From UHGV virus genome UHGV-0214148: DNA of 64,000 nt; one strand, given 5' to 3'. Positions 6,620-55,274 of this stretch are shown here, piece after piece (position 1 is the first letter of the stretch; each line of letters opens with the position of its first letter). Origin of the DNA: a virus. The position numbers and the translations under genes are program-made. Below the pieces are notes generated by a model, which ran no database searches, was not told the DNA's origin, and worked only from the letters and a program-made list of their open reading frames with translations.

Positions 6620-6632
6620 GGAGAATTTTTTG

Positions 6633-10814: not shown

Positions 10815-10852
10815 GACAGACTGCCTGCGGGCAGTTGTGTGTCCGTAGGTAA

Positions 10853-10889: not shown

Positions 10890-10908
10890 AAAAGTAGGAG
10901 TCTTTACG

Positions 10909-20398: not shown

Positions 20399-21704
20399 AT
20401 TCCCTAAGCAGTTAACGTATCAGATCGTAACCAACCTTTCGTGTAACCTGGACTGCGAATATTGTTACGAACGTAAGTACCCGCGTAACAACAAAGCGGC
20501 GGATATTGTTGATTTCTTACACGCCTGTTTTGAACGTGATAAAAACGAACCGAATGTTGAAGTTATTATCGACATTATCGGTGGTGAGCCGTTCATGCAG
20601 CCTAAACTGCTGCTGGCTGCGTTTGAAACCGCTGAGCAGTTGTGTAAAGAACACAACCGACCGTTTATGTTTAGTATCTCCACGAACGGAACGCTGTTAG
20701 ATCGTCCGTTGAACCGTGAGATTGTAGAACGTTGGAAAGACAAACTTTCGGTTGGGGTTTCGATTGACGGCTTACCTGAGTCCCATGACCGTTATCGTAT
20801 CTTCACAACAACACGCCAGGGTTCTTACGAAGCCGCAGTACGTGGCTATAACTACTTAAAAGAGGTTGGCATTGCAGAGCTCGGCGTAAAAGCAACCTTT
20901 ACGTTAGAAACGCTGCCGTTCTATGCTGCGGGGATGAAGTCATTAATTGACATTACTGGCGGTGGGACAATTTCTGGAAACGTAACTTTCGAAGACGTTA
21001 TGCCACGTAGCATGGCGACGTCAATCGCTTTACAGATGATGGATGTGATAGATTACTGGGTTGAGAAAGGATTACACACCAACCCACGTAATATCTTATC
21101 GCACATCATTCCAGAAGGGTTGGATTTCGATACGATTTGGGAACCGAACTGGCGTGACCAGTTACTGTATAATGACACCGTACGGTTGAACCCAGAACGT
21201 TTACGTCCGTTCTGTGGGACGTTAACGCACATGACGTGCTTAGGGTTTGACCGTAAGATCTTTGGCTGTAACCGCTTTATGTCAACGGTAACGTCGCGTT
21301 CTGCGGTGTTTGAGTTGGTAGGTCGGGAATTCGTCAGTCTGGACAACGGTAAATTGTTAGAAGAGATTCAAACGCAATATACCAACTACCCAGAGACCTG
21401 TTTAGGTTGTCCGATGAAACACGCTTGTGGTAGCTGCGCGGCTGCTTCTTACGAGAACGGGGAAGGAACGTTAGAAGACCGTAAAGCGTATCACGCTGAA
21501 CGACGTCAGTGCGGCTGGACGACAGCGAAACTGATGGTGGCGGAATACTGGAAACAGAAGATGGGTACGACGTCAGCAAAAGCGTTCCATGACACGAGCA
21601 TGTGTTATTGCCCACGCTGTGTTCGTGAACGTGCCCAAAAGGAAAAATTATTAAGAGAAGCCAAAGATGAAACCAATTCTGATCAACAATATTACGAAGC
21701 GTAG
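20382..21704 (+). CDS. radical SAM enzyme with SPASM-type C-terminal domain (440 aa)
   Basis: N-terminal CNLDCEYC and GGEPF motifs; C-terminal CLGCPMKHACGSC plus further Cys pairs; start overlaps the upstream gene by 17 nt. Confidence 0.8.
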   Translation: MSQVNEFPKQLTYQIVTNLSCNLDCEYCYERKYPRNNKAADIVDFLHACFERDKNEPNVEVIIDIIGGEPFMQPKLLLAAFETAEQLCKEHNRPFMFSISTNGTLLDRPLNREIVERWKDKLSVGVSIDGLPESHDRYRIFTTTRQGSYEAAVRGYNYLKEVGIAELGVKATFTLETLPFYAAGMKSLIDITGGGTISGNVTFEDVMPRSMATSIALQMMDVIDYWVEKGLHTNPRNILSHIIPEGLDFDTIWEPNWRDQLLYNDTVRLNPERLRPFCGTLTHMTCLGFDRKIFGCNRFMSTVTSRSAVFELVGREFVSLDNGKLLEEIQTQYTNYPETCLGCPMKHACGSCAAASYENGEGTLEDRKAYHAERRQCGWTTAKLMVAEYWKQKMGTTSAKAFHDTSMCYCPRCVRERAQKEKLLREAKDETNSDQQYYEA

Positions 21705-24705: not shown

Positions 24706-24711
24706 AAACTA

Positions 24712-24735
24712 CCCTACTCCTTAACGGGAGTAGGG
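24712..24735 (+). terminator. intrinsic terminator
   Basis: 9-bp stem CCCTACTCC/GGAGTAGGG with a 6-nt loop. Confidence 0.6.
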
Positions 24736-24820
24736 TATAGTCATTTTAACCGCCAAATCGTGCGTAGAACGCATTCTAAGCGCCTTTATACAAAATAAGG
24801 TATAAACGCCTTAGAAATAA

Positions 24821-28715: not shown

Positions 28716-28735
28716 AGGGGTGGTTTACCACCCCT
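28716..28735 (-). terminator. intrinsic terminator
   Basis: Stem AGGGGTGG/CCACCCCT. Confidence 0.45.
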
Positions 28736-28759
28736 TAGATGAATCTAGAACGTCGTTAA

Positions 28760-29527
28760 TTAACGACGTTTTTGACAATTAGGACAATCGCAATCTTTGT
28801 TGTAAATATCAAAAATCTTTTCGAGAACCATGGCACGTGCTTTTTCGATATAAGAATCCGTTGAAACTATTCGCATAAAGTTCGTTAATGATTTGAAAAC
28901 CTCAACATCGTTGTCGATCAAAACGGTGAGCGTTTCACCTTTGTAAACGGATTGATGAATTTTCTCCTTGTGTTCGTGAACAGCCACACGCATGAGTTCA
29001 TCAGCGGTATCTTTTCCGATACCATGAATCGAAATAAGTCGAACAGCGTCGTTATCGATCAGCTTAACGATAGAACGAATATCTTCCATGAGGTTACGAT
29101 CGTCTTTCTTCAATCGAACGAGGAGCTTGCTGTTATCCCAGTAAATGCCTAAATCGTCGTGATAGAGGGTCTCTAACGCTTCTTTAATTTCCTTAATCTT
29201 CTTACCTTCGTACCAGAGGACGTGCGGTTCGTCTTTCTGCTGTTTTTCGGCCTCGGCTTTCGGTTGTTCAGTCTCGGTCGTTTCTACCCAGGCGTTCGTG
29301 GTACCTTCTGCTGGGTTGAGTAACTCACCGATTTCTTTCGCAATAGTGTCACAAAGATAATCGTTGCTGTGAGTCCAGTAGAACACGATGCTTTCATCAT
29401 TGAGTTGTTCTACACGGAAATGCACACCTTTATCCAGGAATATGCGATAAAGTTGATCGAGTAACTGTGCTTCAGGAACCGGACGGATTTCAGTTTTAAC
29501 GAGCGGGGTAATTTCGATACTAAACAT
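28760..29527 (-). CDS. hypothetical protein (255 aa)
   Basis: ORF length; first gene of the second copy of a duplicated two-gene module. Confidence 0.55.
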   Translation of the reverse strand: MFSIEITPLVKTEIRPVPEAQLLDQLYRIFLDKGVHFRVEQLNDESIVFYWTHSNDYLCDTIAKEIGELLNPAEGTTNAWVETTETEQPKAEAEKQQKDEPHVLWYEGKKIKEIKEALETLYHDDLGIYWDNSKLLVRLKKDDRNLMEDIRSIVKLIDNDAVRLISIHGIGKDTADELMRVAVHEHKEKIHQSVYKGETLTVLIDNDVEVFKSLTNFMRIVSTDSYIEKARAMVLEKIFDIYNKDCDCPNCQKRR

Positions 29528-29549
29528 GTCATTTTTTCCTTTTGGTAAA

Positions 29550-29978
29550 TTAACTGTAATTGTGCTTAAAGAACTCTAAAGCACGCTGGTCGTTTGTAAT
29601 CGCCGTTGTGGACATTCGTTTTAACGCCTGGCGACAGTAAGGGTCATTAAGAATACGTTGCTGCCAAGCATTGACTATTTCCGTCACTGTTTCCCCTTCT
29701 ACAGCAGTGTTAAGTTTATCGAGGCAGTGTCGGCCTAACAGAAACGCAACCGCATAATCTGTAAACATCTCTGTGCCGAAAGGACCATCAGGATAATCGC
29801 AACGTTTACGTACTGAGGTTGCGGTAATGGAGTTATATGCGGTTTTTATTATCTCGTGAAATTGTTCCACAGTTAAGACGTTAACGTCAGTACCTGAAAG
29901 CGTAAGTGATGCCAGTACAGGAATACTGGCTGGGTACTTACGGATATAATCACGCAAATCTGAATTGAGCGTCTTCAT
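29550..29978 (-). CDS. hypothetical protein (142 aa), paralogue of 28252..28683
   Basis: Paralogy; overlaps the upstream gene by 29 nt. Confidence 0.55.
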   Translation of the reverse strand: MKTLNSDLRDYIRKYPASIPVLASLTLSGTDVNVLTVEQFHEIIKTAYNSITATSVRKRCDYPDGPFGTEMFTDYAVAFLLGRHCLDKLNTAVEGETVTEIVNAWQQRILNDPYCRQALKRMSTTAITNDQRALEFFKHNYS

Positions 29979-30726
29979 TCTTGAACCCCTTTGTTTTTAT
30001 CCAATATAAGCAATTTGTACCAACCTGAACTGGTTCGATCCTATCGAGTTCTTCCATCAAAGCCAGATAAGTCTGCCAAACGATTTGACGTTCGAGGAAA
30101 AATGATGTTGTGCCATTAGACCTAACACAAGCACGTACCAGGTGCTCGGTTTGTGAAAACTGTATATTAACGTTGTTCAGGACACGTTGAATAGTATCAG
30201 AATCGTAATGCGCGAAACGATCTTTGTGTACCAGAACCAACTCTATAGGCGTGGAATCGTCATTGACTGAAAAAGGTTCGTCAATACGAATAAGGTTATT
30301 CCGGTGAGGTACCCCATCATAACCGAGCGTATAAACATCCATACCTTCCCCTGGGTTACAGTCGAAATACTCCAGAAGTTTATCAGCGTTTTTCTCCGCC
30401 GAACGTTTAAAGTAAACAATATAAACGCCATGACTAACCTTCTCAACTTCGTATACTTTTTCGGAGAGTGCCCTGAAGATTGCCATGACGTTTAATCTTC
30501 CTTTGTCTTTAGCAACGTAACTTGCAACTAAACACGTTGCTTCACCACGAAGAACATCGTCAATGAACTCTTTTGCTCGTTTTAATTCATCCTCGTTAAA
30601 ACCACCGATAGTGAGCTCATTCCCACAAATCTGATAAGCAAGATGTGGAGTAACGTTTTTCAGGAAACTCGTAATGATGTGCGTGTATGCCCAAAGACTA
30701 CTATTCTTAAACTCGATAGTTTTCAT
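29950..30726 (-). CDS. hypothetical protein (258 aa)
   Basis: ORF length. Confidence 0.55.
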   Translation of the reverse strand: MKTIEFKNSSLWAYTHIITSFLKNVTPHLAYQICGNELTIGGFNEDELKRAKEFIDDVLRGEATCLVASYVAKDKGRLNVMAIFRALSEKVYEVEKVSHGVYIVYFKRSAEKNADKLLEYFDCNPGEGMDVYTLGYDGVPHRNNLIRIDEPFSVNDDSTPIELVLVHKDRFAHYDSDTIQRVLNNVNIQFSQTEHLVRACVRSNGTTSFFLERQIVWQTYLALMEELDRIEPVQVGTNCLYWIKTKGFKNEDAQFRFA

Positions 30727-30759
30727 TTTATTTTCCTTTTGGTTTTACAAGTCGAAATA

Positions 30760-30786
30760 ATAGGGTAAGGGAATCCCTTACCCTAT
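30760..30786 (-). terminator. intrinsic terminator
   Basis: 12-bp stem ATAGGGTAAGGG/CCCTTACCCTAT. Confidence 0.6.
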
Positions 30787-30793
30787 AGCGTAA

Positions 30794-31300
30794 TTAAACG
30801 TTGAAGTTAAAACGTACGTCTAAGATATTGGATATAAGATTGAAAAGTTCAACTTTGGTAGCTAAACCGGCTCTTAAGTAAACGTCAAAGCTATCCTTAC
30901 GGAAACTAAATTTAACCGAACTACCTAGCTCCTTTCTGAATTCGTCATAAAGTTCGTACTTATCGACATCCGTTAAGTCTTTATCGAATTCTACCGTGAA
31001 GCGATATTTTTCTTTGGCTTCCATTCCTTTAGTGTAAACCGCACATTTAGCGGTGGTGGTACCGACGATTTCGCACACCATATTGAACATTTCCTCATCG
31101 GTACGTACTGCGGCGGTGTAACCAATATCGATGGAGTCTTTACGGAAACCCATAAAGAACAACGCACCGAAGTGTTTGCGGAAAGCTTTATACAGCGCAT
31201 CTTTTTCATCTTCGGTTAATACGTAGTCCAGTTCAACAGTAAACTTGTAATCTTCTTTAGAAACGAATTCTTTAGCATAATCAACTTTAGTGAAGTTCAT
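30794..31300 (-). CDS. hypothetical protein with internal tandem duplication (168 aa)
   Basis: Two roughly 80-aa halves share K..Y.FTVE.D..LT...K..LY..FRK..G.....FRKDS.D. Confidence 0.55.
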   Translation of the reverse strand: MNFTKVDYAKEFVSKEDYKFTVELDYVLTEDEKDALYKAFRKHFGALFFMGFRKDSIDIGYTAAVRTDEEMFNMVCEIVGTTTAKCAVYTKGMEAKEKYRFTVEFDKDLTDVDKYELYDEFRKELGSSVKFSFRKDSFDVYLRAGLATKVELFNLISNILDVRFNFNV

Positions 31301-31346
31301 GGTATATTCTCCTAAAATGGTTTTTCGTTAAGTGAGAGCTTTTGTA

Positions 31347-31372
31347 CCCTCACCTAAGTAATATATATCTGA
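31347..31372 (-). promoter_or_regulatory. conserved 26-bp promoter-like element, copy A
   Basis: CCTCACCTAAGTAATATATATCTGA, nearly identical to copies at 35726 and 55204, each 47-76 nt upstream of a minus-strand start codon. Confidence 0.45.
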
Positions 31373-31383
31373 AATTATTTTTA

Positions 31384-31686
31384 TTAAAACCCCGCAATAA
31401 AACTACCTAGCGAGACACGCTGTAGGTATTTTGGTTTGCGTGCCAGGTAACAGTTCTTAGGATTACCTATTGCCATCTGCGCAACTGCACGTTCTAAACG
31501 CGGTGCTTCTAAGATGGCGCGATAGTTCCCTTCGTAATGCATTAACCACGCACACTCTTCAACGAAACGTTTTGCTTCGCGATAATCTAACGTACGAATT
31601 AACTTCTTGCCCCGGTATTGTTTTACATCACCGTTTTGACAAAATACAATAGTTTCACGATTCATTGATAATCTCCCAGAATTCAC
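31384..31686 (-). CDS. hypothetical protein (100 aa)
   Basis: ORF length. Confidence 0.5.
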   Translation of the reverse strand: MNSGRLSMNRETIVFCQNGDVKQYRGKKLIRTLDYREAKRFVEECAWLMHYEGNYRAILEAPRLERAVAQMAIGNPKNCYLARKPKYLQRVSLGSFIAGF

Positions 31687-31792
31687 GTACTAAATTACTT
31701 TTATATCCTTCAACCTCGGCACGACAACCTTTTGAGATTTTCTCAAGCACTGTCAGCCCACCCTCTTTAGATAGCTTACCTTCGCAGATCAA

Positions 31793-31951
31793 TTAAGATA
31801 TTGCACAGAGCTTGTAATAAAGTTCCCATTGTTCGGTGATTGATTTCGACTGTACCTTGATCAGTTCATCTTGCGTAGCAATAAGTTTTTCGCTGATCTC
31901 ACAGACATCGCATTTCTTACGTTTAAAGAATTCGATTAGTTTAAAAACCAC
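31793..31951 (-). CDS. small CxxC protein (52 aa)
   Basis: GTG 31951 with AGAGGAGGT SD 5-6 nt upstream; overlaps the upstream stop by 11 nt; the track gives a longer ATG version 31793..31984. Confidence 0.4.
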   Translation of the reverse strand: MVFKLIEFFKRKKCDVCEISEKLIATQDELIKVQSKSITEQWELYYKLCAIS

Positions 31952-32252
31952 TGTTACCTCCTCTGGCAATCCAGGTCGCCACACGCATATGGGCGTCTTG
32001 AAAAGATGAGATCAGTAAGATCACACCGCCTAACGTACGAGGTACGCGTAAGGCTTCGAAACGTCGGCAGTAAGAGCGTACACAATACTCGGAACCTAAG
32101 ATAACGATTTCGCAGTATTCTGAACGAATCGGTAGTAATTGAGAAACGAGTTTATCGCACGTTTCTTTGTTGTCTTCTAATAACCCGCCACTGAGAATAT
32201 AATTGACAATGTTCTCAGGTGCCGATGTGTTCGCGATTTTATTTTCCATCAT
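31941..32252 (-). CDS. hypothetical protein (103 aa)
   Basis: ORF length. Confidence 0.5.
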   Translation of the reverse strand: MMENKIANTSAPENIVNYILSGGLLEDNKETCDKLVSQLLPIRSEYCEIVILGSEYCVRSYCRRFEALRVPRTLGGVILLISSFQDAHMRVATWIARGGNSGF

Positions 32253-32650
32253 TAAACTCCTATTGTGATCTCCGTAATGTGCATTCTTCGCATCTCACGG
32301 GTCATTCTCTCCATTGCTCGTTGACACTCGAATAAATTGTCGTAGTATTTCTGGGCGGTAACATTGAATAAAACTCGACCATCTTTCAATTGTTTAGCAG
32401 CGACTCTTATAGTTTCCGATTCAAACAACCGACCGCCTCCCCTGCCAACCTTAACCATAACGTCACGAATAGTAACGTTTATAAGTTCACCGTTAGGGGA
32501 AGTCACAACCTCCGTATACCAGTCACCTTCTTTAACGACATATTGTACTCTTTTACCACACAGCCAGTTTTTAACTTTCCCGTTAACAAACAGTTGGGCT
32601 TTTAATGACAAACGCCTTTTTAAGTAAAATAAACGCATCATGTAAATCAC
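32252..32650 (-). CDS. hypothetical protein (132 aa)
   Basis: ORF length. Confidence 0.5.
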   Translation of the reverse strand: MIYMMRLFYLKRRLSLKAQLFVNGKVKNWLCGKRVQYVVKEGDWYTEVVTSPNGELINVTIRDVMVKVGRGGGRLFESETIRVAAKQLKDGRVLFNVTAQKYYDNLFECQRAMERMTREMRRMHITEITIGV

Positions 32651-32654
32651 CTTA

Positions 32655-32679
32655 TCTCCCTCGGCGTTCCCGAGGGAGA
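32655..32679 (-). terminator. intrinsic terminator
   Basis: Stem TCTCCCTCGG/CCGAGGGAGA. Confidence 0.5.
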
Positions 32680-32684
32680 GCTAA

Positions 32685-32966
32685 TCACAGTTTCTCTTCT
32701 ATTGTATCTAATCGAACTAACGCATCGTGACTGACTTTACGTGCATGTCCAATCGTACTGCCTAAAGCTTTTGTTGTTGGGTCTAAGGTATTCAGACGGT
32801 GATACTGATAATCGATATCCCGTATACAACGCGCCTGTTGTTTTACCATCCGAATTAATTGTCGTTTGGTTTGACGATTGTTACTAAGTTCCTGCCGTAA
32901 CCGTGCGTTTTCTTTATAAAGCTCCTGTTGACGTGAGTTAATTAATCCCAACAACCAATCTAACAT
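32685..32966 (-). CDS. hypothetical coiled-coil protein (93 aa)
   Basis: ORF length; charged helical pattern. Confidence 0.5.
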   Translation of the reverse strand: MLDWLLGLINSRQQELYKENARLRQELSNNRQTKRQLIRMVKQQARCIRDIDYQYHRLNTLDPTTKALGSTIGHARKVSHDALVRLDTIEEKL

Positions 32967-32968
32967 TT

Positions 32969-33484
32969 TTACCCCCGGTGCAAGAAAATACGGTTAGTGT
33001 TTTCGAATTTCGGTTCCGTCCACTCTAGTTCCCAGTAAGCCTGGTTAATATCGCGAGACGTAAGTTTCAAATTCGAAACGCCGGGGATATCGATCTGTTG
33101 CAGTAAATTAATAATCGTCATCAGCTCTTTACGAGGACGGTTCCAGATAACTTCAAGATATTCCTTTAGGCGTTCTGGGTAAGCGACAGGACGAATATAA
33201 ACTAACCCAGAAGGATACTCAATTGCTGAGGGCGTTCTTGGCACTAACCAAACCCAGTCTTTTAATAGCGGTCCTGGGTGATAGTTGGAGAGTTGGGTAA
33301 GCGCGTTTGCGACCGAACAGCAACGGAAGTAGGTGATATCCCAATCGCGTTCATGACAATTTCGCGCAACGATAACTTTTAAACGGTCAATAGGTTTACC
33401 GTCGATGGTCGTAACACCAGGTTGATTCGCCAGAATCTGACGTTCACGTTTAGTGTAAAGATTCATGTTAATATTTACTGACAT
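32969..33484 (-). CDS. hypothetical protein (171 aa)
   Basis: ORF length; AAAGGAG SD. Confidence 0.5.
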   Translation of the reverse strand: MSVNINMNLYTKRERQILANQPGVTTIDGKPIDRLKVIVARNCHERDWDITYFRCCSVANALTQLSNYHPGPLLKDWVWLVPRTPSAIEYPSGLVYIRPVAYPERLKEYLEVIWNRPRKELMTIINLLQQIDIPGVSNLKLTSRDINQAYWELEWTEPKFENTNRIFLHRG

Positions 33485-33510
33485 TTAATGCTCCTTTAGG
33501 TAAATGGTGT

Positions 33511-33519
33511 GGGGGGGGG
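33511..33519. repeat. G9/C9 homopolymeric tract, intergenic
   Basis: Nine consecutive G on the plus strand between the stop at 33534 and the start at 33484. Confidence 0.6.
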
Positions 33520-33533
33520 TAGTTAATGCTTCG

Positions 33534-34376
33534 TTATTTAAGATTCTGAATTTCTCTCATCTCGTTACAAAACTTATCAAACAACTGGGCGTATTTGTCA
33601 ATGTGATTTTCGAACTCCCCAAAAAGGTGGCGTGAAAGGCGTTCGCTGACTTCCTTTTCGTATTTCTCGAGAAGTTGTTTAAAATATTCACTGTCTCTCT
33701 TAATTTTCTTCACATGGGATTCCAAAACTTTAAGAATCCATGATTCGTTTCTGATCAAGAGATTCAAATTACCTTCAAGATATTTGCTTTGATAAATCAT
33801 AAATTCGCGGCCTTCGAGTTCATCTTTCACGCGTCGGATAAACTCGCCAGCATTGGCTTCGCTAATATCTTCAACTGTAAATACCAGAACATTTTCTCCC
33901 TCTATGTCTTCCAATAGTTGATTTAAAAGAACACGATAGCTAGTATATTCATAGTTCACCCTAAGTACGTTGTTTTCAACCAGATAAGTGAATTTGTCGC
34001 TGTAAAAAAGGTATAATATCGATCCAATTTTACCTGCTTGTTTGGGGGTAAGCGGAATCTCGTCTGTGAAGTAAGCGACGTCTTTTGCGGTGGGCTTGTC
34101 TTTTAGCCTACAAGTCATTTGATCGGGTATTTCTTGCCCTTTAGGCATCTCAACAGGCCGTACCAAAATATCCATAACTGCACTAATGAGCTTGTTAGAG
34201 AAATCGACCTCGCCTTCTACCCAGAAAATATTAAATGTTTCCGATTTAACTTTATAGTAAAAGGTGTACGTTTTTTGTAACTCAGCGATTTCCTTAATTT
34301 GTTCTTCTGTGGGGATAGGGGAGATCTTAAACCTGCTGATGACTTTTTCTTCTTCGGTGAGTTCGAACTGTAACAT
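33534..34376 (-). CDS. hypothetical protein (280 aa)
   Basis: ORF length. Confidence 0.55.
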   Translation of the reverse strand: MLQFELTEEEKVISRFKISPIPTEEQIKEIAELQKTYTFYYKVKSETFNIFWVEGEVDFSNKLISAVMDILVRPVEMPKGQEIPDQMTCRLKDKPTAKDVAYFTDEIPLTPKQAGKIGSILYLFYSDKFTYLVENNVLRVNYEYTSYRVLLNQLLEDIEGENVLVFTVEDISEANAGEFIRRVKDELEGREFMIYQSKYLEGNLNLLIRNESWILKVLESHVKKIKRDSEYFKQLLEKYEKEVSERLSRHLFGEFENHIDKYAQLFDKFCNEMREIQNLK

Positions 34377-34387
34377 GTTATAGTTCC

Positions 34388-34831
34388 TTAAATCATACCT
34401 GGGAATTCGAAATCGATTTTATCTAAAAGTTTGTAGTCGTCTTTTAGTTGAAGCATTAGTGTATTCTTAAACAGTTCAAGTGAACCGATAAAGTAAGCCG
34501 TATAGCAGCTACCACGAACAGAAGAGGAAAGACCCAAGTCTCTTAAACACTGTTTCAAGATTTCATGTTCTTCAGCGGTACCGAAAAGTTGGAAATTGAT
34601 AACGGTAATCTGTTTATTAATGATTGCCGATAACCATTCTTTAATTCTTCTCGTGGTTATACGTTCTTTGAAATCACTAGCTTCTGGCAACCAGGTAATG
34701 TGAACGAACGGTGCATCGTAATCCACGAGAACTTTTTGCTGCCAACGTACTTGCATCAAACCACGAATACGGTTTGCTAACGTTTCAGAATCACAAAGTA
34801 ACATAATGCCGTTAGTAGTATTTGGTTTCAT
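34388..34831 (-). CDS. hypothetical protein (147 aa)
   Basis: ORF length. Confidence 0.5.
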   Translation of the reverse strand: MKPNTTNGIMLLCDSETLANRIRGLMQVRWQQKVLVDYDAPFVHITWLPEASDFKERITTRRIKEWLSAIINKQITVINFQLFGTAEEHEILKQCLRDLGLSSSVRGSCYTAYFIGSLELFKNTLMLQLKDDYKLLDKIDFEFPGMI

Positions 34832-35679
34832 AATTGCCCTTCCTTCTTAATGTAATCTTCAACCAACTTATCAAACACGATTTTTATTTTCTCGCGTTCA
34901 TCTTCATTCAATTCACCAGAACAGGTTAGCCCATTTATCTTTCCGTACCGTAATTCCAACACATATTTCAACCGATGACGTAAGGCTTGTTCAAAATGCG
35001 TCGGGATATAGATCGGTTCGAAGTTGTGTAATAAAGTAAAATTGTCTTCGGTGTGTTTAGGGGGTTCGAATTTTACTTTATCTAAGATAGTAAGCCAACG
35101 GTGTCTGTCGACTAACCGATCGTCCCAATAAACCGGTTTTGTCTTAGAGGGAGTAAGTGTGTTGTAGTTACTGGAATCAGAGACACGGAAATTTGCCGTG
35201 ACATAAGTCTTCGAGAGTAACGAGAGAAGACAAATCGTACCTTCTTCAGAGAAACTTAAACCCTCGTCGAGTACGTCTTTAGCTTTCTTGAAGTAGTCCT
35301 CAATATAGTCTTCAGCAATTGGTTGAATTTCTACCTCCATACAGCTAATTTGGGGCCCGTCTATCCGTAAAGGAATTTTTAGTTCAGCAATATATTGCCT
35401 ATCCGATGTATAAGCTCGCGTAATAATAGGGTACGTAACAGGCTTAGCTAAATGACGATATTCGCCATCGCTAATGACTGAGAGACGTCCAAAGCCATCT
35501 TTATTCGATTTTGAAAAACTGTAAAGGTCTTTTAGATACTCCAGATACTGGTCATCCGTCATTTCATCGGTATCAAATTCACGAATGTAAAGTTGATTAA
35601 AAGATCCCTTTGTTTGTTCGTAGTAATAACCAGGGTCCCTATTTGCTAGAATGTGCGGGAGATAATACGGGTGATACAT
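34828..35679 (-). CDS. hypothetical protein (283 aa)
   Basis: ORF length; sits downstream of promoter-like element B. Confidence 0.55.
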   Translation of the reverse strand: MYHPYYLPHILANRDPGYYYEQTKGSFNQLYIREFDTDEMTDDQYLEYLKDLYSFSKSNKDGFGRLSVISDGEYRHLAKPVTYPIITRAYTSDRQYIAELKIPLRIDGPQISCMEVEIQPIAEDYIEDYFKKAKDVLDEGLSFSEEGTICLLSLLSKTYVTANFRVSDSSNYNTLTPSKTKPVYWDDRLVDRHRWLTILDKVKFEPPKHTEDNFTLLHNFEPIYIPTHFEQALRHRLKYVLELRYGKINGLTCSGELNEDEREKIKIVFDKLVEDYIKKEGQL

Positions 35680-35725
35680 CTAATCCTCCTTTAGGCTATA
35701 ACTAATGGAGTGAACGTAAATTTCA

Positions 35726-35752
35726 CTCTCTCCTAGGTAATATATATCTGAG
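35726..35752 (-). promoter_or_regulatory. conserved 26-bp promoter-like element, copy B
   Basis: CTCTCTCCTAGGTAATATATATCTGAG, 47-73 nt upstream of the 35679 start and just downstream of terminator 35766-35796. Confidence 0.45.
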
Positions 35753-35765
35753 AAAAAATATAAAA

Positions 35766-35796
35766 ACCGTAGGATGGACTAAGTCCATCCTACGGT
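35766..35796 (-). terminator. intrinsic terminator
   Basis: 14-bp perfect stem ACCGTAGGATGGAC/GTCCATCCTACGGT with a 3-nt loop. Confidence 0.65.
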
Positions 35797-35801
35797 TTAA
35801 A

Positions 35802-37922
35802 TTAAATAACTACCCAGCTTTTGCCATCGGAACCAATCTGCATTAGCGTAATACTTTCATTGGTCTCAATGGGTTTGGCAAGACCTTCCGTCCCACTCTT
35901 TGGAGTGATGAGAACGTTTGAGTTTTCCGGTTTAACGATGATCTTACCAGCCTTATTTGCCACGATCTGTATATTTCTACCCACACTATATTCTAGATCA
36001 GGAATAGTAAGTTGGCCGCCACGGTTGGTGGCTGGGAAATACACATAAGACGACACATCTTCCTCAGATAACACTATACCACCAGAATCACGATTGACCG
36101 AGATCTCAAACTTAGAAATATCGATATCGTAGGCAGTAACTTTCGTAATATCTGTCAGAACCAATTCGTTCAAATCGGTATTAGCTGGACTGTTCGCCAG
36201 ATCAAACGGAGTGCCATTCTTGCCGTCAAGCACAGGTGTGACTTTGATTTTATTGTCACCCGGATAAATGATTTCAAGCGTATGCCAGTTATTATCGTAT
36301 GCACCAAAAGTTCCTAATTGCGCATTCTGCTTTTTATGATGCATCAGATAAAGATTCGTAGCGTCGGTCTGTAAGAAAAAAGACATTAGGTACGGGTTCG
36401 TCTTAGCCACACCAGCGTCAGCAAGTGTAGTACCAGAAGGTAGGTCGGACGCGGAAATACGCCAATAAAGTCCTAATCCGAAACGATCTGCTGCTAAATC
36501 ACCTTTTAGTCTAAAAGTAACGGTCAGACGTCCACCGTAACGTATCATGTCCGCAGCAGTCGCCATTGACTTAGTTACATTCCAAGGTTTCATCGTTACA
36601 GCCTTTCTTAATTCGACGAAATGCCCGTTTCCATCCTCAGTTTTTTGCACGGTTACGTTACAATCAACGATATTGTTCCAACCTTGCCCTTTCAGGGAAC
36701 CATCTCCACGACGACCGTTATAACCAACAGACTCTACTAATGGGGTATAGCTTCTTACCACATTCATATTGTCTTTGGAGCTCTTAGTGTCGTTCTTCGT
36801 CAGGAACATTGCACCAATCGCTGTTCTTGATAATATCTCGGCAGCTATTCTCTCTGAGATAATACCGCGTCGTGCCCAAGAACTGAAATGACTATTCCTT
36901 TCTGCAGACGTCCAGTTATCAGAACTACGGGAGGCAGCACCGTAATAGGCAGCACCAGTGATATTAGGATCGTCAGTGGGATCATTAGTCGGAACATGTT
37001 GGCCATTATCGTCGTACATGAATGGAACAAAAAAGATATTTTTTTGTTCGTTGTTACGATAATTACCGTATATGGTTTCATATTGAGCAGGATATTTTTC
37101 CTTCCAATAATAGGTAGTGTCCCCACAGATCCATGGTACTTCGGCGGTGGCGTACTCGGGCATCTGAGAGAGATGGTCAGAGAGATCAGTTCGGAAACGC
37201 TCTACCATTGCGTTAAATAACGCTGGTTGTTGTGCGTATTGTACTTTAGTCAGATCATACTCTCCCTGCATCCACACTACAGCCAAGAGTTTATTTTTAG
37301 GATTAACTTCCAGGGCTTTTTTGGTCCGGCTAACTAAATCTTTATAAAGCGGTTTGTCCACCCCCCATACCGATGACGCCGCAGAGGCTCCTGTGGCTTC
37401 ATCGAAGGTACCTTCTGCACCACCCGTGAAAGCAGAACCGCCGCGTGCGCAGGGTACTAGTAAGATACCGGCGTTCTTAGGAATATACGGGAGAAGACGC
37501 TTCGCGATATGAAGACCTTGACCCACACATCCGTATTCACCTTTGTCTAAATTGGCATTGGGATGCGAGTATTTGGACATATCTTGCACGTCGTGCAGAC
37601 AGTGATCCGCTGGAATGACGTCGTTATATTTACAATCAGCCCCATTAGGCGTTACCTTCGCACGGCGCGCCATCTGTTTAATTCGCGGATCGGGAGCGTC
37701 CAACGTCGCCGGTAGAGGCAACCCTTCACCATAACTCATCGCATTAGATTGCCCGGCTATAGGAATCACGAAGTAATACTCCGGCTCCGTCGTGCCCTGA
37801 AGTTTTGCAATATCAATTTTATATTCTTTTTCTTCCTTAGAAAGAAGAACTAACGCACCTTTGAGATCGCCAGAGAAATTGTCGAGTTCATGGATACGTT
37901 TCTTTCCAATTGGCTGACTCAT
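35802..37922 (-). CDS. tailspike-like protein with sialate-O-acetylesterase (SASA/SGNH) domain (706 aa)
   Basis: GQSNAMSYG and WMQGEYD blocks typical of the SASA esterase family; N-terminal roughly 35 aa resemble the N-terminus of the 1479-aa fibre. Confidence 0.7.
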   Translation of the reverse strand: MSQPIGKKRIHELDNFSGDLKGALVLLSKEEKEYKIDIAKLQGTTEPEYYFVIPIAGQSNAMSYGEGLPLPATLDAPDPRIKQMARRAKVTPNGADCKYNDVIPADHCLHDVQDMSKYSHPNANLDKGEYGCVGQGLHIAKRLLPYIPKNAGILLVPCARGGSAFTGGAEGTFDEATGASAASSVWGVDKPLYKDLVSRTKKALEVNPKNKLLAVVWMQGEYDLTKVQYAQQPALFNAMVERFRTDLSDHLSQMPEYATAEVPWICGDTTYYWKEKYPAQYETIYGNYRNNEQKNIFFVPFMYDDNGQHVPTNDPTDDPNITGAAYYGAASRSSDNWTSAERNSHFSSWARRGIISERIAAEILSRTAIGAMFLTKNDTKSSKDNMNVVRSYTPLVESVGYNGRRGDGSLKGQGWNNIVDCNVTVQKTEDGNGHFVELRKAVTMKPWNVTKSMATAADMIRYGGRLTVTFRLKGDLAADRFGLGLYWRISASDLPSGTTLADAGVAKTNPYLMSFFLQTDATNLYLMHHKKQNAQLGTFGAYDNNWHTLEIIYPGDNKIKVTPVLDGKNGTPFDLANSPANTDLNELVLTDITKVTAYDIDISKFEISVNRDSGGIVLSEEDVSSYVYFPATNRGGQLTIPDLEYSVGRNIQIVANKAGKIIVKPENSNVLITPKSGTEGLAKPIETNESITLMQIGSDGKSWVVI

Positions 37923-37925
37923 CTA

Positions 37926-38438
37926 CTACTCTCCAAAAGTTAAGATTTTATTGTCAAACGTCAACACGACAGAATCATCACCGATGCCACACGGTGTTTC
38001 ATCTGGGCCGAAAACCACCACGGAGAACTGTCCTTTATAAGCGATGGAATTTGGAGCGATGCTAAGCGTTACCGCGTCTTTACCTACCGTGAACGACTGG
38101 TCGGTTAAATCGTCGGTTTGTAAGTTAGCACCACAAACGGCATTGACGGATTCGATAAGATCGTGTGCATTAAACCCTTCACCTATTACTTTTACCAGAA
38201 TAGGTTGTTGGTTTAACCACCGCTCTGCGGTTAAACGGTTGTAGTAGATTTGCAACGTTCTGTTTCCAGGACGTTTAATCTTTACAATGGCAGTGGAGTC
38301 ACGATCCATTTCATCACTGGTTTTTACGTCACTGACTTCAACCTCGTTCTCTTGCAAGTCAAGTTGGAGGTCATGGTTAACCAGTGAAATAACCATGTTA
38401 AGTGAAGTTAGTGATAAATCTGGTGTGAATTTTTCCAC
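37926..38438 (-). CDS. hypothetical protein, paralogue family B (170 aa)
   Basis: GTG start with TAGGAGGT SD; shares PDLSL...NHD...YY.RL...CG.NLQ..DL and C-terminal CGIGDD.VLTF blocks with 44527..45087. Confidence 0.55.
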   Translation of the reverse strand: MEKFTPDLSLTSLNMVISLVNHDLQLDLQENEVEVSDVKTSDEMDRDSTAIVKIKRPGNRTLQIYYNRLTAERWLNQQPILVKVIGEGFNAHDLIESVNAVCGANLQTDDLTDQSFTVGKDAVTLSIAPNSIAYKGQFSVVVFGPDETPCGIGDDSVVLTFDNKILTFGE

Positions 38439-39884: not shown

Positions 39885-42800
39885 TTAATTCCCCTTGAGT
39901 TCTTTAAGCTCTTGGCGAAGAGTTTTCATGCCTTCTACTAACAACGCAATAACACCATTGTAATTTAGACGTAAACGTTTTTCGCCTGAAATGGCATCAT
40001 CATCCTCAGACACAAGCTCAGGTAACGCTTCTAGAGCGTCCTGAGCAATTAGACCTACAGAAGTCTGCCAGCCGTCGTCAGGATGCTGAATTTCGTACAA
40101 ATAACCGGTTAGTAACTCTAACCGATCCAAAGCCTTATCCAGCTTCACCAGATTACGTTTGTTACGACGGTCAGAACGAATCTGTACGTCGTTAAACGAA
40201 CCGTTACCGTTGCCAGTAACGTTATGTCCAAAGTTTACTTGGCCGTTAGAATTATTAAAAGACAACGGGCGTAATCCGTTCCAGGAACCCGCTGCGGCTT
40301 GTCCGGCGTCGGTTACTAAGAAATAGGTATTGGCACCGTCGTTACGTAAAATAAAACCGTAGGTACCGTAAGCGATTCGAAAATCAGGGTATTTAGTGGC
40401 CAATTTACCATTAACGGTTAAATCACCGCCTACAGTACCGCCCCCTGACGGTAACGCGCCCACTTCCGCAGCAGTTGGCTTGTTTCTCGTATTGTAAGCA
40501 CGACGCCAGCCTGGTGAGTATCCATCGCCGTTAAATACGTAGATAAACTCCGCATTAGTGAGTGCTCCGCCGACGCTCGTCGTTGTGGCGGTCGTTATAC
40601 GGATCGTGTAGTTGTTTGTGCTGTTGCCGTTACTAATGACTTCTATAACGGCCCCAGCTAACGGAATGACACCACAACCCGTCTCGCTGTGAGGTATGGA
40701 CGCACTGGCGGCATAAGCCCACGCACAGCGAGCAACCCACGATCTTGTGGTAAATGCGCCGTTATTTTTCAATAACGTCACTAGCTGTGCTGTAGTTATT
40801 GCACCGCCATTAGCGCCAGTTTCTAACCAACCACTAGGTGATGCCGGACAACCTATTTCGGCTGGCCCTAACGATATATTTCTAGTGCCATCAAACGCAA
40901 TACCATTGATGGTTCTTGCGGTTTGCAACTTTGTTGCCGTGGCTGCGTTTCCGGTGGTCGACTGATTCCCTGTTTGGTTTACTCCAGGTAAGTTGATGTC
41001 TTTAGTACCATCAAAAGCTACGCCACCTATATTTCGCGCAGTCTGGAGCTTAGTCGCAGTCGCAGCATTCCCCGTCGTCGATTGGTTACCGGTTTGGTTC
41101 ACACCGGGCAGACTAATGTCTTGCGAACCATCAAAGTTAATACCACCGATCTTACGTGGCGTTTGTAACTTAGTAGCGGTCGCTGCATTACCTGTCGTAT
41201 TCTGGTTACCTTGCTGGTTAACCCCCGGTAAATTGATATCCCCAGTACCGTCAAAGGTAACGCCCCCGATTCTGCGAGCAGTTTTCAGTTTCGTCGCGGT
41301 AGCAGCGTTACCAGTAGTATCTTGATTACCGGTGGTATTTACACCAGGAATACTATCACGGGCAGTATAAACTTGTGCCCAATCTGACCACGGCGCATCC
41401 GCTGTATCGCGTCGACTACGAATATAAACGGGTGCGTGCGCACCACTCGTGCCCGACCAACCGATTAACAGTTCACCTTCACCTAGCGCAGTAGAACCGC
41501 CCAAATGCAGCAAGTTACCATAAGCGGTCGGATAACCGTTATTGTAAACTTCGTACATCTGAATACCGGGTGTACCTTTGTTTGAACCGGTTAGTGCAGT
41601 AACCCGACCACGACCTACCAGGGTGTTGATATTGATGTCAGCAGAACCATCGAATCTCACACCGTTAATATTTCTGGCAGTTTGAAGTTTAGTGGCTGTC
41701 CCGGCATTACCCGTGGTGTTTTGATTACCCTGTTGGTTAACACCTGGGAGGTTAATATCAGCACTACCGTCGAAAGCGACTCCACCAATTCTACGTGCCG
41801 TCTTTAATTTCGTTGCGGTTGAAGCATTGCCTGTTAACTCGCCTGCTAACCCTTTTGCAAAGGTCTGTTTTTCTGCCCAGGTGTGTGCTGCATTCAATAC
41901 AGGCATCTGTCGTGGTGTAATCGTACGACTACCTTTCTCACCAGCGATACGTACTGCAAAGAATCGATAGTTGGCAGTAGACACCGTACTACGCCAAACC
42001 AACATACTCCGGCCTGATGTAGCGCCATCTGATGGACCAACCAGAATGCTAACTAAGTTACCGTCAATAACACCCCAATCCATTCCCGTAGGAATGTTTT
42101 TCATGGTGTTAAGCGGCGTACAGATTAACTCACCCGGTTTAAAGTCATAGGTTTGCCAGTCTAAAGGATCAACATTCGCACGTTCACCGCCGATACCTAA
42201 TACCAGCGGAAGCGAATACGATGTGAAAACCTCACGCCAATCGCTCCAAGCGTTACCCGTACGGATACGTTGGAATTTACGACCTTTAGTTTCTGTACCC
42301 GTACCGTATGTAGTATAATTCTGTTCGACCCCTGTACCGTCTAAGCGTAAGGTAACTTCACAAACGCCTAATATGGTTTCACCAGAAGAACCGGTAAGTG
42401 GACCGTTAGTTGCTTCACCAGTGACACTGAAACGTCCCGGTTTAACGAGATCGTTAAAATTGGCTTTAAAGAAAGCACCGTCAGTCTGATAACCAACCTG
42501 AATCCAATCTTCCCATTGCGGGTTTGATGAATCCCACGTTGCGGTCAAACCACGAACATACATCGTACCACGACGTGTGGTGTATCGCTGCAACCGTCCG
42601 AAAAGACCACCTTCCATTACTTCTAGTACGCCTTGCGCACCGCCACCTTCTTCAGGGTAATGTCTGCTAAAAACAGCCAGCGAACTGCTTGAGTTTCGCC
42701 AGTTACCCATATGCTCAGCGCCACCCAAACTGTTCAAGTCTATAGCGGTAGATAATGGACGTACACCAGTAGTTACCATTCTCCACGGCGACCAGGGTCC

Positions 42801-49582: not shown

Positions 49583-49606
49583 CCCTCTCTCCTAACGGAG
49601 AGAGGG
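49583..49606 (-). terminator. intrinsic terminator
   Basis: 10-bp stem CCCTCTCTCC/GGAGAGAGGG with loop TAAC. Confidence 0.6.
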
Positions 49607-49883: not shown

Positions 49884-49956
49884 TTTAGATTACTCCATTT
49901 AGTTAAGTGAGAATTCTCACATAGATGAAATATATCTTAAATTTTTTAGACAGCCA

Positions 49957-50628: not shown

Positions 50629-50652
50629 CCCTCTCTCCAAACGGAGAGAGGG
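50629..50652 (-). terminator. intrinsic terminator
   Basis: 10-bp stem CCCTCTCTCC/GGAGAGAGGG with loop AAAC; same stem sequence as terminator 49583. Confidence 0.6.
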
Positions 50653-54071: not shown

Positions 54072-54089
54072 GGGGAACCGAAGTTCCCC
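54072..54089 (-). terminator. intrinsic terminator
   Basis: Stem GGGGAAC/GTTCCCC with loop CGAA; A-rich flank. Confidence 0.5.
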
Positions 54090-54794: not shown

Positions 54795-55154
54795 TTAGTG
54801 TGTTGCGGCGTTAGTGATAAAACGCACATTCTTCGTGGTGCGTTTAATGGACGTGTTTGCAACGTAGTCCAACGCGGACTCTACGTGAACGGTTACTGAG
54901 CAACGACCCTTAACGGAATTAAAACTAATCTGGTATTTCAGACGAATCGCATCAGCAACTTTCATCATAATCGGCAAACTTAAACGTTCTGAGTGATCGT
55001 TCTTAATAGACGAGATAACGGGTTGTGAAACTTTCGCAAGCTGGGCAAGTTCACGCTGAGTAATGTCTTTTGTGGTCAAATGACGAATTACGTAAGACAA
55101 GTGAAGACCGAATTTACGCTTTGCCAGAATGATGGAATTGTGATTGTAAGCCAT
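54795..55154 (-). CDS. helix-turn-helix transcriptional regulator (XRE-like)
   Basis: ITQRELAQLAKVSQPVISSIKN helix-turn-helix signature; sits downstream of promoter-like element C. Confidence 0.6.
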   Translation of the reverse strand: MAYNHNSIILAKRKFGLHLSYVIRHLTTKDITQRELAQLAKVSQPVISSIKNDHSERLSLPIMMKVADAIRLKYQISFNSVKGRCSVTVHVESALDYVANTSIKRTTKNVRFITNAATH

Positions 55155-55203
55155 TGTAAATACTCCTTTAGGTTAACAAGTCGGTGTAAAGAGTTAATCA
55201 TAA

Positions 55204-55230
55204 CTCTCACCTAGGTAATATATATCTGAG
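55204..55230 (-). promoter_or_regulatory. conserved 26-bp promoter-like element, copy C
   Basis: CTCTCACCTAGGTAATATATATCTGAG, 50-76 nt upstream of the 55154 start; terminator 55246-55267 lies immediately upstream. Confidence 0.45.
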
Positions 55231-55245
55231 AAAAAATAAAATATA

Positions 55246-55267
55246 GGTACCACCGTTGGGTGGTACC
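55246..55267 (-). terminator. intrinsic terminator
   Basis: 9-bp stem GGTACCACC/GGTGGTACC with loop GTTG. Confidence 0.6.
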
Positions 55268-55274
55268 TAAGCGG

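What the first reader, a model, noticed from the sequence alone, without database searches (positions are those of the whole stretch)
31347..31372. 26-bp element repeated three times at fixed distance upstream of start codons
CTC(A/T)C(C/T)CCTA(A/G)GTAATATATATCTGA(G) occurs at 31347-31372, 35726-35752 and 55204-55230, each 47-76 nt upstream of a minus-strand start codon and, in two cases, immediately after an intrinsic terminator. On the coding strand it reads TCAGATATATATTACCTAGG..., an AT-rich -10-like core next to a CCTAGG palindrome. It is likely a phage-specific promoter or regulator-binding site marking a temporal class.
Basis: seen in the sequence. Interest (0 to 1): 0.6.

Follow-up and report, generated by a model that had tools for sequence, protein, structure and literature searches.

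The report
Jumbo-phage early (virion RNA polymerase) promoters
The repeated 26-bp element is the early-gene promoter of an SPN3US/phiKZ-type giant phage, most likely read by the RNA polymerase the phage carries in its own particle; this kind of signal is already known, and here it comes with a possibly unreported hairpin at the start of each early transcript.

Summary
The 20-nt core CCTARGTAATATATATCTGA occurs exactly three times (0.01 expected), always on the minus (coding) strand, 47-50 nt before an SD+ATG, twice directly after an intrinsic terminator. A fourth, degenerate copy lies at 49913-49953.

The window comes from an uncultivated SPN3US-like jumbo phage. On the coding strand the element reads TTTCAGATA-TATATTAC-CTAGGTG. 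This is the same architecture as the phiKZ early promoters (TTTRAGATN-TATATTAC-NNNNTTG), which the literature assigns to the virion-packaged multisubunit RNA polymerase.

- It is the only DNA in an 8-kb stretch shared with GenBank relatives at megablast level, although their proteins are only about 40-65% identical.
- Among 50,697 phage records it matches 70, all enterobacterial jumbo phages, at 279 places. All 40 listed matches lie in unannotated DNA.
- In SPN3US, 23 of 23 sites are co-oriented with genes, including RNA polymerase genes.

So the promoter reading is supported. The regulator-binding alternative (the HTH protein) is not supported.

One addition: the predicted transcripts start GAGAG and fold into a covarying 5'-terminal hairpin that most phiKZ early promoters examined lack.

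Verdict: a new member of a known kind, of modest interest.

The parts
55203..55243 (-). It reads TATTTTATTTTTTCTCAGATATATATTACCTAGGTGAGAGT. The predicted TSS is G at 55208.
   Evidence: PWM 51 vs shuffle max 15; TSS inferred by homology
55244..55269 (-). Intrinsic terminator that closes the upstream thymidylate-kinase unit and abuts promoter C.
   Evidence: 11-bp stem, T-rich tail; tmk identity
55189..55208 (-). Predicted 5'-terminal RNA hairpin of transcript C (GAGAGUUA-UGAU-UAACUCUU, -7.5 kcal/mol).
54795..55154 (-). First gene of unit C: a 119-aa Cro/C1-type HTH protein. It is the ortholog of the SPN3US HTH gene at 94310-94675, which also sits behind an early-type promoter.
54072..54089 (-). 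Terminator that probably ends unit C, after the 223-aa ORF at 54102-54773.
49913..49953 (-). Fourth, degenerate promoter copy D: CTAAAAAATTTAAGATATATTTCATCTATGTGAGAAT. The predicted TSS is at 49918. It is followed by the GTGAGAATTCTCAC palindrome (49920-49907) and by an 89-aa ORF at 49614-49883.
49583..49606 (-). Terminator that ends the single-gene unit D.
35725..35765 (-). It reads TTTTATATTTTTTCTCAGATATATATTACCTAGGAGAGAGT. The predicted TSS is G at 35730.
35764..35798 (-). Strong intrinsic terminator (16-bp stem) immediately upstream of promoter B. It follows the 706-aa ORF at 35802-37922.
35707..35730 (-). Predicted 5'-terminal RNA hairpin of transcript B (GAGUGAA...UUCACUC, -7.6 kcal/mol).
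31384..35679 (-). Unit B: nine tightly packed ORFs (34828-35679 down to 31384-31686). All have no known function, and no strong terminator occurs before promoter A.
31346..31386 (-). It reads TAATAAAAATAATTTCAGATATATATTACTTAGGTGAGGGT. The predicted TSS is G at 31351. The stop codon of the upstream ORF (31384-31386) lies inside its A/T-rich arm.
31334..31351 (-). Predicted 5'-terminal RNA hairpin of transcript A (GAGGGU-ACAAAA-GCUCUC, -7.4 kcal/mol).
28716..31300 (-). Unit A: ORFs 30794-31300, 29950-30726, 29550-29978 and 28760-29527, all uncharacterised, ending at the terminator at 28735-28716.

Best explanation
The element is the early-class promoter of an SPN3US-like (phiKZ-related, Chimalliviridae-type) jumbo phage. 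After genome ejection, the co-injected virion multisubunit RNA polymerase (orthologs of SPN3US gp241/gp218/gp240/gp42/gp244) would recognise three parts on the minus strand. These are an A/T-rich tract at about -35 to -20, the invariant block TTTCAGATA-TATATTAC (an extended -10-like core at about -14 to -7), and the start region CTAGG-T-G. Initiation would be at the G about 7 nt after TATATTAC (window 55208, 49918, 35730, 31351), without host sigma-70 polymerase. The transcripts begin GAGAG..., fold into a 5'-terminal stem-loop, and carry a 35-54-nt leader with an AGGAG ribosome-binding site. They express small early genes of mostly unknown function plus one HTH protein. Intrinsic terminators placed directly in front of the promoters insulate the units. 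What is shown here: the repeat, its statistics, its strand and position rules, its extreme conservation, its architectural identity with phiKZ early promoters, a vRNAP ortholog in sister genomes, and hairpin potential with covariation. What comes from the literature: this motif class marks experimentally mapped early TSSs in phiKZ, 201phi2-1 and AR9, and early transcription there is independent of host RNAP and of protein synthesis. What is inferred: the exact TSS, early timing and vRNAP dependence in this phage, and the hairpin's function. The most likely function is protection of the early mRNA 5' end from 5'-end-dependent decay.
For: (1) Three exact copies against 0.01 expected. A PWM finds four sites scoring 41-51 against a shuffle maximum of 15, all on the minus strand and all 35-54 nt before an SD+ATG.
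(2) The window's virion proteins are 41-50% identical to SPN3US and Erwinia jumbo phages. Sister UViGs that are 93-94% nt identical to the window encode a 76-77% identical ortholog of SPN3US gp241, which is the head-packaged vRNAP beta subunit (PMC5105663).
(3) Megablast of window 30000-38000 against 50,697 phage records hits only the element itself. A 46-nt query hits 70 records and 279 places, all 224-251 kb enterobacterial jumbo phages, and all 40 listed matches lie in unannotated DNA. In IMG/VR the exact 19-mer occurs in 37 loci from 13 contigs; 12 are 107-246 kb and one is a 7.4-kb fragment. Every copy is followed by an SD+ATG.
(4) Whole-genome scan of SPN3US: 23 sites above the shuffle maximum, 23 of 23 on the gene strand, and 21-22 in gaps between CDSs. 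They include sites before RNA polymerase subunit genes (29014; the gp76-gp77 nvRNAP-beta operon at 72738) and before the HTH ortholog.
(5) The order tmk-[terminator+promoter]-HTH is conserved with SPN3US. The promoter's 24-nt core (idx -1 to +22) differs at only one base, the variable Y position (CCTAGG here, CTTAGG in SPN3US), while the flanking proteins are 64% and 38% identical.
(6) Architecture matches phiKZ early promoters read directly from the phiKZ genome, for example TTTGAGATT-TATATTAC-TAAATTG before PHIKZ054. It also matches the published consensus strings for phiKZ, 201phi2-1, OBP and N1M2 (PMC7058600).
(7) Literature: the motif class lies about 10 nt upstream of mapped early TSSs, with conserved -10/-20/-30 regions (PMC7598289; PMC11512511; PMC8244752; PMC10914365; PMC13282480).
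(8) Sigma-70-like sites are not enriched in the region: 33 against 36 expected, and 29 against 34.
(9) Downstream genes are small proteins with no family assignment, as reported for early genes of these phages.
Against: There are no transcript data for this phage or, as far as I could find, for any SPN3US-clade phage, so the TSS and the timing rest on homology. The 64-kb window itself contains no RNA polymerase gene, so vRNAP presence is inferred from sister contigs. vRNAP-promoter binding has not been shown biochemically even for phiKZ. The AR9 paper stated in 2017 that no vRNAP had been purified, and I found no later report. The core contains a TATATT hexamer, so weak recognition by host sigma-70 polymerase cannot be formally excluded. 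In SPN3US the sites before the polymerase genes belong to the weaker AGATAGATATTATCT subclass, whose equivalence to the strong class is assumed.
Confidence: 0.88

Rival explanations
1. Operator for a phage regulator, for example the Cro/C1-type HTH protein encoded at 54795-55154. The repeats would be protein-binding sites that switch a gene class on or off rather than the promoter itself.
For: CCTAGG is a 6-bp palindrome in two of the three copies. An HTH gene lies directly behind one copy, and this pairing is conserved in SPN3US, which could suggest autoregulation.
Against: The conserved block of about 40 nt is asymmetric with no dyad. The CCTAGG dyad is broken (CTTAGG) in copy A and in about half of 42 related copies. 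Orientation is strictly tied to the downstream gene: 4 of 4 here, 23 of 23 in SPN3US, and all IMG/VR copies. The same core (TATATTAC with the same flanks) marks mapped early TSSs in phiKZ, which has no reported requirement for a regulator. A regulator acting on top of the promoter is not excluded.
Confidence: 0.05
2. Strong host sigma-70 early promoters, as in T4 or T5, in which TATATT serves as the -10 hexamer.
For: The core is AT-rich and contains TATATT. One copy scored 9 of 12 in the sigma-70 consensus scan, as TTAATA-16-TATATT at 31387-31360.
Against: There is no conserved TTGACA-like -35 hexamer at 16-18 nt spacing. The upstream conservation is an A/T tract with different invariant positions. 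Invariance extends over 24 nt, including +1 to +5, which sigma-70 recognition does not explain. Only one of the four copies passes the lenient scan, and sigma-70-like sites are not enriched. Development of relatives is independent of host RNAP.
Confidence: 0.04
3. A signal unrelated to transcription that happens to sit in intergenic DNA, such as a site-specific nick or modification motif, a recombination or homing target, or a packaging or replication signal.
For: It is a short, highly conserved, multi-copy motif. Motif-associated nicks exist in some phages (the abstract of PMC11780129, seen).
Against: Such signals have no reason to lie 35-110 nt upstream of, and co-oriented with, an SD+ATG in every case, nor to follow terminators. 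The motif is homologous to mapped promoters.
Confidence: 0.02

Closest known systems
phiKZ / 201phi2-1 early promoters (virion RNAP class)
   Same: Both have the identical TATATTAC core, an upstream TTTNAGAT block and an A/T-rich tract at -20/-30, and a conserved TG 6-7 nt downstream. Both are intergenic, co-oriented with early operons, present in dozens of copies per genome, and precede nvRNAP genes.
   Different: The conserved block here is longer and nearly invariant across genera: 24 nt, CAGATATATATTACYTAGGTGAG. The start region is GGTGAGAG instead of NTTG. The transcript start forms a covarying hairpin that 6 of the 8 phiKZ sites examined lack. There is no experimental TSS for this clade.
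OBP / N1M2 predicted early promoter (TTTCARRYAKATATTATYWAAGTG)
   Same: The alignment is near base-for-base, 21 of 24 positions (my own alignment to the string quoted). The weaker SPN3US subclass CAGATAGATATTATCTAAGTG fits it even better.
   Different: That motif comes from a different host range and genus, and is itself only predicted bioinformatically.
AR9 early promoter (uracil-DNA Bacillus jumbo phage)
   Same: The logic is the same: an AT-rich motif of about 10 nt centred near -10, read by an injected multisubunit vRNAP and validated by dRNA-seq and primer extension.
   Different: The sequence is different, the genome contains uracil, and the phage forms no phage nucleus.
Coliphage N4 vRNAP promoters
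   Same: Both are early promoters read by a virion-injected polymerase, with a hairpin associated with the promoter (background knowledge; the N4 papers were only listed).
   Different: N4 vRNAP is a single-subunit enzyme, and its DNA hairpin lies upstream of the start site and is itself the recognition element. Here the hairpin is downstream of the predicted +1 and looks like an RNA feature (sense more stable than antisense, G-U pairs).
5'-terminal stem-loops that stabilise E. coli mRNAs (ompA type)
   Same: The hairpin starts at or within 2 nt of the 5' end in 25 of 27 non-redundant copies. This is the geometry known to block 5'-end-dependent RNase E/RppH decay (established knowledge, not tested here).
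   Different: The function is purely inferred. No half-life data exist.

Membership tests
phiKZ-family (RNAP-encoding jumbo phage) early promoter | A highly conserved AT-rich core of about 10 nt (TATATTAC in phiKZ). | tested here: met
   TATATTAC is present in all three strong copies. It matches the published consensus strings and phiKZ sites read from the genome.
phiKZ-family (RNAP-encoding jumbo phage) early promoter | Conserved upstream T/A-rich elements at about -20 and -30, plus a conserved base just before the start. | tested here: met
   The information profile of 42 copies shows invariant A, T, A, T and T at -14, -12, -9, -3 and -1 relative to CAGA, and TGAGAG downstream. The phiKZ comparison is, and the literature description.
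phiKZ-family (RNAP-encoding jumbo phage) early promoter | Many copies per genome, intergenic, and co-oriented with operons of mostly uncharacterised early genes and nvRNAP genes. | tested here: met
   The window has 4 of 4 such copies. SPN3US has 23 of 23 on the gene strand, 21-22 in inter-CDS gaps, and sites before RNAP subunit genes. Downstream genes have no family assignment.
phiKZ-family (RNAP-encoding jumbo phage) early promoter | The genome encodes a virion-packaged multisubunit RNA polymerase. | tested here: met
   This is not visible in the 64-kb window itself. Sister contigs 93-94% identical to the window encode a gp241 (vRNAP beta) ortholog at 76-77% aa identity.
phiKZ-family (RNAP-encoding jumbo phage) early promoter | A primary 5' end about 10 nt downstream of the core centre, appearing within minutes of infection and independent of host RNAP and of protein synthesis. 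| not testable with these tools
   This needs dRNA-seq or 5' RACE with and without rifampicin or chloramphenicol. The TSS positions 31351, 35730, 49918 and 55208 are predictions by homology.
Bacterial sigma-70 promoter | A TTGACA-like -35 hexamer 16-18 nt upstream of a TATAAT-like -10 hexamer. | tested here: not met
   There is no conserved -35 hexamer. Only one copy reaches 9 of 12 in a lenient scan, and such sites are not enriched.
Dimeric HTH operator | Conserved dyad symmetry and function independent of orientation. | tested here: not met
   The element is asymmetric. The CCTAGG dyad is not conserved (C/T at one position). Orientation is strictly gene-linked.
Rfam RNA families (5' UTR elements) | A match to a curated covariance model. 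| tested here: not met
   No family reaches the gathering score anywhere in the window.

The most novel reading that the evidence does not exclude
In the enterobacterial SPN3US clade the early promoter has acquired a second, coupled module: an invariant initial transcribed sequence (GAGAG) whose complement co-evolves a few nucleotides downstream. Every early mRNA would therefore be born with a 5'-terminal stem-loop. This hairpin could be a dedicated device, absent from most phiKZ early promoters examined, that is needed for early-mRNA survival, for exit from the early-infection vesicle, or for vRNAP promoter escape. How early transcripts are handled before the phage nucleus exists is an open question, and this would make it testable.
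Probability: 0.3. Interest if true: 0.5.

Novelty: new member of a known kind. Interest (0 to 1): 0.3.

Why it matters
The finding gives a precise, portable signature (TTTCAGATATATATTACYTAGGTGAG) for annotating early transcription units in SPN3US-like giant phages of Salmonella, Erwinia, Escherichia, Cronobacter and Proteus, and in metagenomic relatives. The genes behind it are a ready list of candidate host-takeover and anti-defence proteins. The core is nearly invariant while proteins have diverged to 40-50% identity. This implies a tightly constrained polymerase-DNA interface, which is useful for structural and in vitro work on a virion RNA polymerase for which I found no report of purification with its promoter. 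The 5' hairpin, if functional, adds a post-transcriptional layer to early gene expression.

Tried and rejected
- An ungapped MAFFT/RNAalifold run on the transcript starts gave no consensus structure, because loop and stem lengths differ. I replaced it with a native-versus-chimera folding test and per-position pair tallies.
- The exact string TATATTACCTAGG appears in no searchable paper.
- Ceyssens 2014 and Cornelissen 2012 are not held. The supplementary TSS tables of two phiKZ transcriptome papers are not held either. The TSS therefore had to be inferred from consensus strings and the phiKZ genome.
- A literature search for SPN3US temporal proteomics returned nothing useful.
- The Joad/RisingSun Erwinia phage paper describes an unrelated motif.
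- An exact-protein look-up of the HTH protein found no source contig.
- Rfam and tRNA scans of the window were empty.
- I considered and rejected a sigma-70 promoter, a palindromic operator, and an N4-type DNA-hairpin promoter.

Full report

Yes. The + strand reads CCCTCACCTAAGTAATATATATCTGA at 31347-31372, CTCTCTCCTAGGTAATATATATCTGAG at 35726-35752 and CTCTCACCTAGGTAATATATATCTGAG at 55204-55230. The 20-nt core CCTARGTAATATATATCTGA has three matches and no further ones even with 3 mismatches allowed. Dinucleotide shuffles give 0.01 expected. All three copies are on the coding (minus) strand of the long leftward gene block. Their near edge is 47, 47 and 50 nt from ATGs at 31300, 35679 and 55154, each preceded by an AGGAG-type ribosome-binding site.

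Strong terminator-like hairpins with T-rich tails abut two copies: 35798-35764 with a 16-bp stem, and 55269-55244 with an 11-bp stem. At the third copy the upstream ORF's stop codon (31384-31386) lies inside the element's A/T-rich arm.

- The degenerate consensus is loose at its weakly conserved end.
- CCTAGG is CTTAGG in one copy.
- The 'fixed distance' is only approximate.

**2. What genome is this?**

The three giant + strand ORFs (1440, 1394 and 1728 aa) match virion-structural PHROGs. The 1394-aa protein finds only jumbo phages of Erwinia, Salmonella, Escherichia, Cronobacter and similar hosts, at 41-50% identity. These include SPN3US and phiEaH2.

The window is 93-94% nt identical to two uncultivated 221-225 kb IMG/VR genomes. 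[quoted passage not shown] The window is therefore part of a new SPN3US-like, phiKZ-related jumbo phage. It contains no RNAP gene, tRNA or Rfam family itself.

**3. The element is the most conserved DNA in the region.**

- Megablast of window 30000-38000 against 50,697 GenBank phage records returns a single kind of hit: the 35-nt element itself, 97-100% identical, in 32 SPN3US-like or phiEaH2-like genomes, always in unannotated DNA.
- A 46-nt query in sensitive mode finds 70 records and 279 places. All are 224-251 kb enterobacterial jumbo phages, with one to seven places each in the listed records. All 40 listed matches lie outside annotated features.
- In IMG/VR (2.9 million contigs) the exact 19-mer CAGATATATATTACYTAGG occurs in 37 loci belonging to 13 contigs. 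Twelve are 107-246 kb and one is a 7.4-kb fragment.
- Every one of the 44 copies is followed, 30-110 nt later, by an SD+ATG on the same strand.
- Aligned copies show conservation well beyond the selected 19-mer. Invariant A/T positions extend back to about -14, and TGAGAG follows downstream, giving a block of about 40 nt.

**4. Genome-wide test in a complete relative.**

I fetched all of SPN3US and scanned it with a position weight matrix (PWM). Twenty-three sites exceed the best score of any shuffled genome, and all 23 are on the strand of the downstream gene. Of these, 21-22 lie in gaps between CDSs.

The sites form two classes. The strong class is CAGATATATATTACYTAGGTGAG. The weaker class is CAGATAGATATTATCTannGnGA, which resembles the OBP/N1M2 motif.

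Sites precede the following:
- two adjacent RNA-polymerase subunit genes (start 29014);
- the gp76-gp77-gp78 operon, where gp77 is the nvRNAP beta N-terminal fragment;
- the HTH gene at 94310.

The HTH gene is the ortholog (38% aa identity) of window ORF 54795-55154. Its upstream neighbour, thymidylate kinase, is 64% identical. The arrangement tmk-[terminator+promoter]-HTH is thus conserved, and the promoter core differs only at the variable Y position (CCTAGG here, CTTAGG in SPN3US).

The same PWM finds a fourth, degenerate site in the window at 49913-49953. It scores 41 against a shuffle maximum of 15 and lies in the gap before the 89-aa ORF 49614-49883. No site occurs on the + strand or in the virion-protein block at 2.3-24.7 kb.

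**5. Identity with a known signal.**

On the coding strand the element reads (A/T-rich)-TTTCAGATA-TATATTAC-CTAGGTG-AGAG. Published consensus strings for predicted or validated early promoters of phiKZ-related phages are (PMC7058600):
- phiKZ: TATATTAC
- 201phi2-1: WTTTRARR-BTATATTAC-DWHDGTG
- OBP/N1M2: TTTCARRYAKATATTATYWAAGTG

Reading the first 50 kb of phiKZ directly gives eight sites. Examples are TTTAAGATC-TATATTAC-TAATTTG and TTTGAGATT-TATATTAC-TAAATTG, the latter in front of PHIKZ054. The blocks and spacings are the same as here.

The literature states the following:
- Such a motif can be found upstream of early operons in every RNAP-encoding jumbo phage.
- Wherever transcripts were mapped, the motif proved to be the early promoter.
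- The motif is centred near -10.
- Early transcription needs neither host RNAP nor new protein synthesis, and is therefore attributed to the injected vRNAP (PMC7598289; PMC8244752; PMC11512511; PMC10914365; PMC13282480).

Sigma-70-type sites are not enriched in the region, and the element has no conserved -35 hexamer.

**6. Mechanism (best explanation, confidence about 0.88).**

The injected vRNAP binds the element and starts at the G about 7 nt after TATATTAC. I infer this from the 201phi2-1 consensus ending in GTG, together with the statement that positions -2 and -9 are conserved there, and from the conserved TG in phiKZ. The predicted starts are 55208, 49918, 35730 and 31351, giving leaders of 54, 35, 51 and 51 nt.

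| Unit | Promoter site | Genes | End of unit |
|---|---|---|---|
| C | 55203-55243 | HTH + 223-aa ORF | terminator 54089-54072 |
| D | 49913-49953 | one 89-aa ORF | terminator 49606-49583 |
| B | 35725-35765 | nine small ORFs | runs into promoter A |
| A | 31346-31386 | four ORFs | terminator 28735-28716 |

Apart from the HTH protein, none of the downstream proteins examined has an assigned function; a few match only function-unknown PHROGs. This is typical of early genes.

**7. An additional feature: a 5'-terminal hairpin.**

The sequence from GGTGAG onward folds into a hairpin in almost every copy.
- Mean MFE is -8.3 kcal/mol, against -1.5 for a control segment 26 nt further downstream. The mean z-score against shuffles is -2.5.
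- In 27 non-redundant copies, swapping 3' halves between promoters weakens the fold: native -7.99 against chimeras -5.7 to -5.8, with 0 of 2000 permutations as good as native.
- Stem positions +3 to +8 show several Watson-Crick pair types. For example, +8 has A-T 6, C-G 4, G-C 4 and T-A 1.
- The sense strand folds better than the antisense strand (p = 0.008), and about 10% of pairs are G-U.
- In 20 of 27 copies the predicted +1 nucleotide itself is paired.
- Six of the eight phiKZ sites lack such a hairpin.

This points to a selected RNA structure at the very 5' end of early mRNAs in this clade. The most economical function is protection from 5'-end-dependent decay. This is an inference from the known behaviour of 5' stem-loops in E. 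coli and is untested here. A role in promoter escape or transcript handling cannot be excluded.

**8. Rivals.**

- A regulator operator (0.05) is disfavoured by the asymmetry, the non-conserved dyad and the strict orientation.
- A host sigma-70 promoter (0.04) is disfavoured by the missing -35 hexamer, by invariance through +5, and by the host-independent biology of the family.
- A non-transcriptional signal (0.02) does not explain the positional rules.

**9. Novelty and verdict.**

The class of element is well known. I could not find the SPN3US-clade consensus or the hairpin in searchable text, but logos in papers that are not held may show the consensus. I rate it a new member of a known kind with interest of about 0.3. 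The hairpin is the only part that might be new.

Noticed in passing
It drives a single 89-aa ORF bounded by a terminator.
   Followed up: yes
window 55189-55208, 35707-35730, 31334-31351, 49907-49920 (-); loci L002-L038: The predicted early transcripts begin with a covarying 5'-terminal stem-loop. It is largely absent from the eight phiKZ early-promoter sites examined in L057.
   Followed up: yes
L039-L043 (SPN3US), e.g. 28953-28993, 72470-72510, 184028-184068: SPN3US carries a second, weaker promoter subclass, CAGATAGATATTATCT, that resembles the OBP/N1M2 consensus. It sits before polymerase genes. It is unknown whether it differs in strength or timing from the strong class.
   Followed up: partly
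window 50629-50652 and 49583-49606 (-): Two nearly identical terminator hairpins (CCCTCTCTCCGTTTGGAGAGAGGG and CCCTCTCTCCGTTAGGAGAGAGGG) lie about 1 kb apart. This suggests a reused terminator module, as reported for phiKZ and 201phi2-1 terminator motifs.
   Followed up: no
window 24710-24737 (both strands): A perfect 12-bp-stem hairpin scores as a terminator on both strands. It sits exactly where the rightward virion-gene block meets the leftward block, so it is probably a bidirectional terminator.
   Followed up: no
window 2297-16095 (+): Three consecutive giant ORFs (1440, 1394 and 1728 aa) share domains with one another (phrog_7557, 8078, 7449 and 2163). They form a paralogous family of virion proteins, as in SPN3US at 145536-158671.
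   Followed up: partly
window 39885-44324 (-): A 1479-aa tail-fibre protein whose C-terminus matches distal long-tail-fibre (T4 gp37-like) families. It is probably a mosaic receptor-binding protein acquired from T-even-like phages.
   Followed up: no
window 30794-31300 (-): The first gene behind promoter A has a sub-threshold Pfam hit to the NTF2-fold immunity protein family (Imm-NTF2, 23.8 bits against a cut-off of 25). This is a possible anti-defence or immunity function for an early gene.
   Followed up: no
window 20382-21704 (+): A radical-SAM protein (phrog_1802) is syntenic with the two radical-SAM genes of SPN3US (140024-142139). Its function in these phages is unknown.
   Followed up: no
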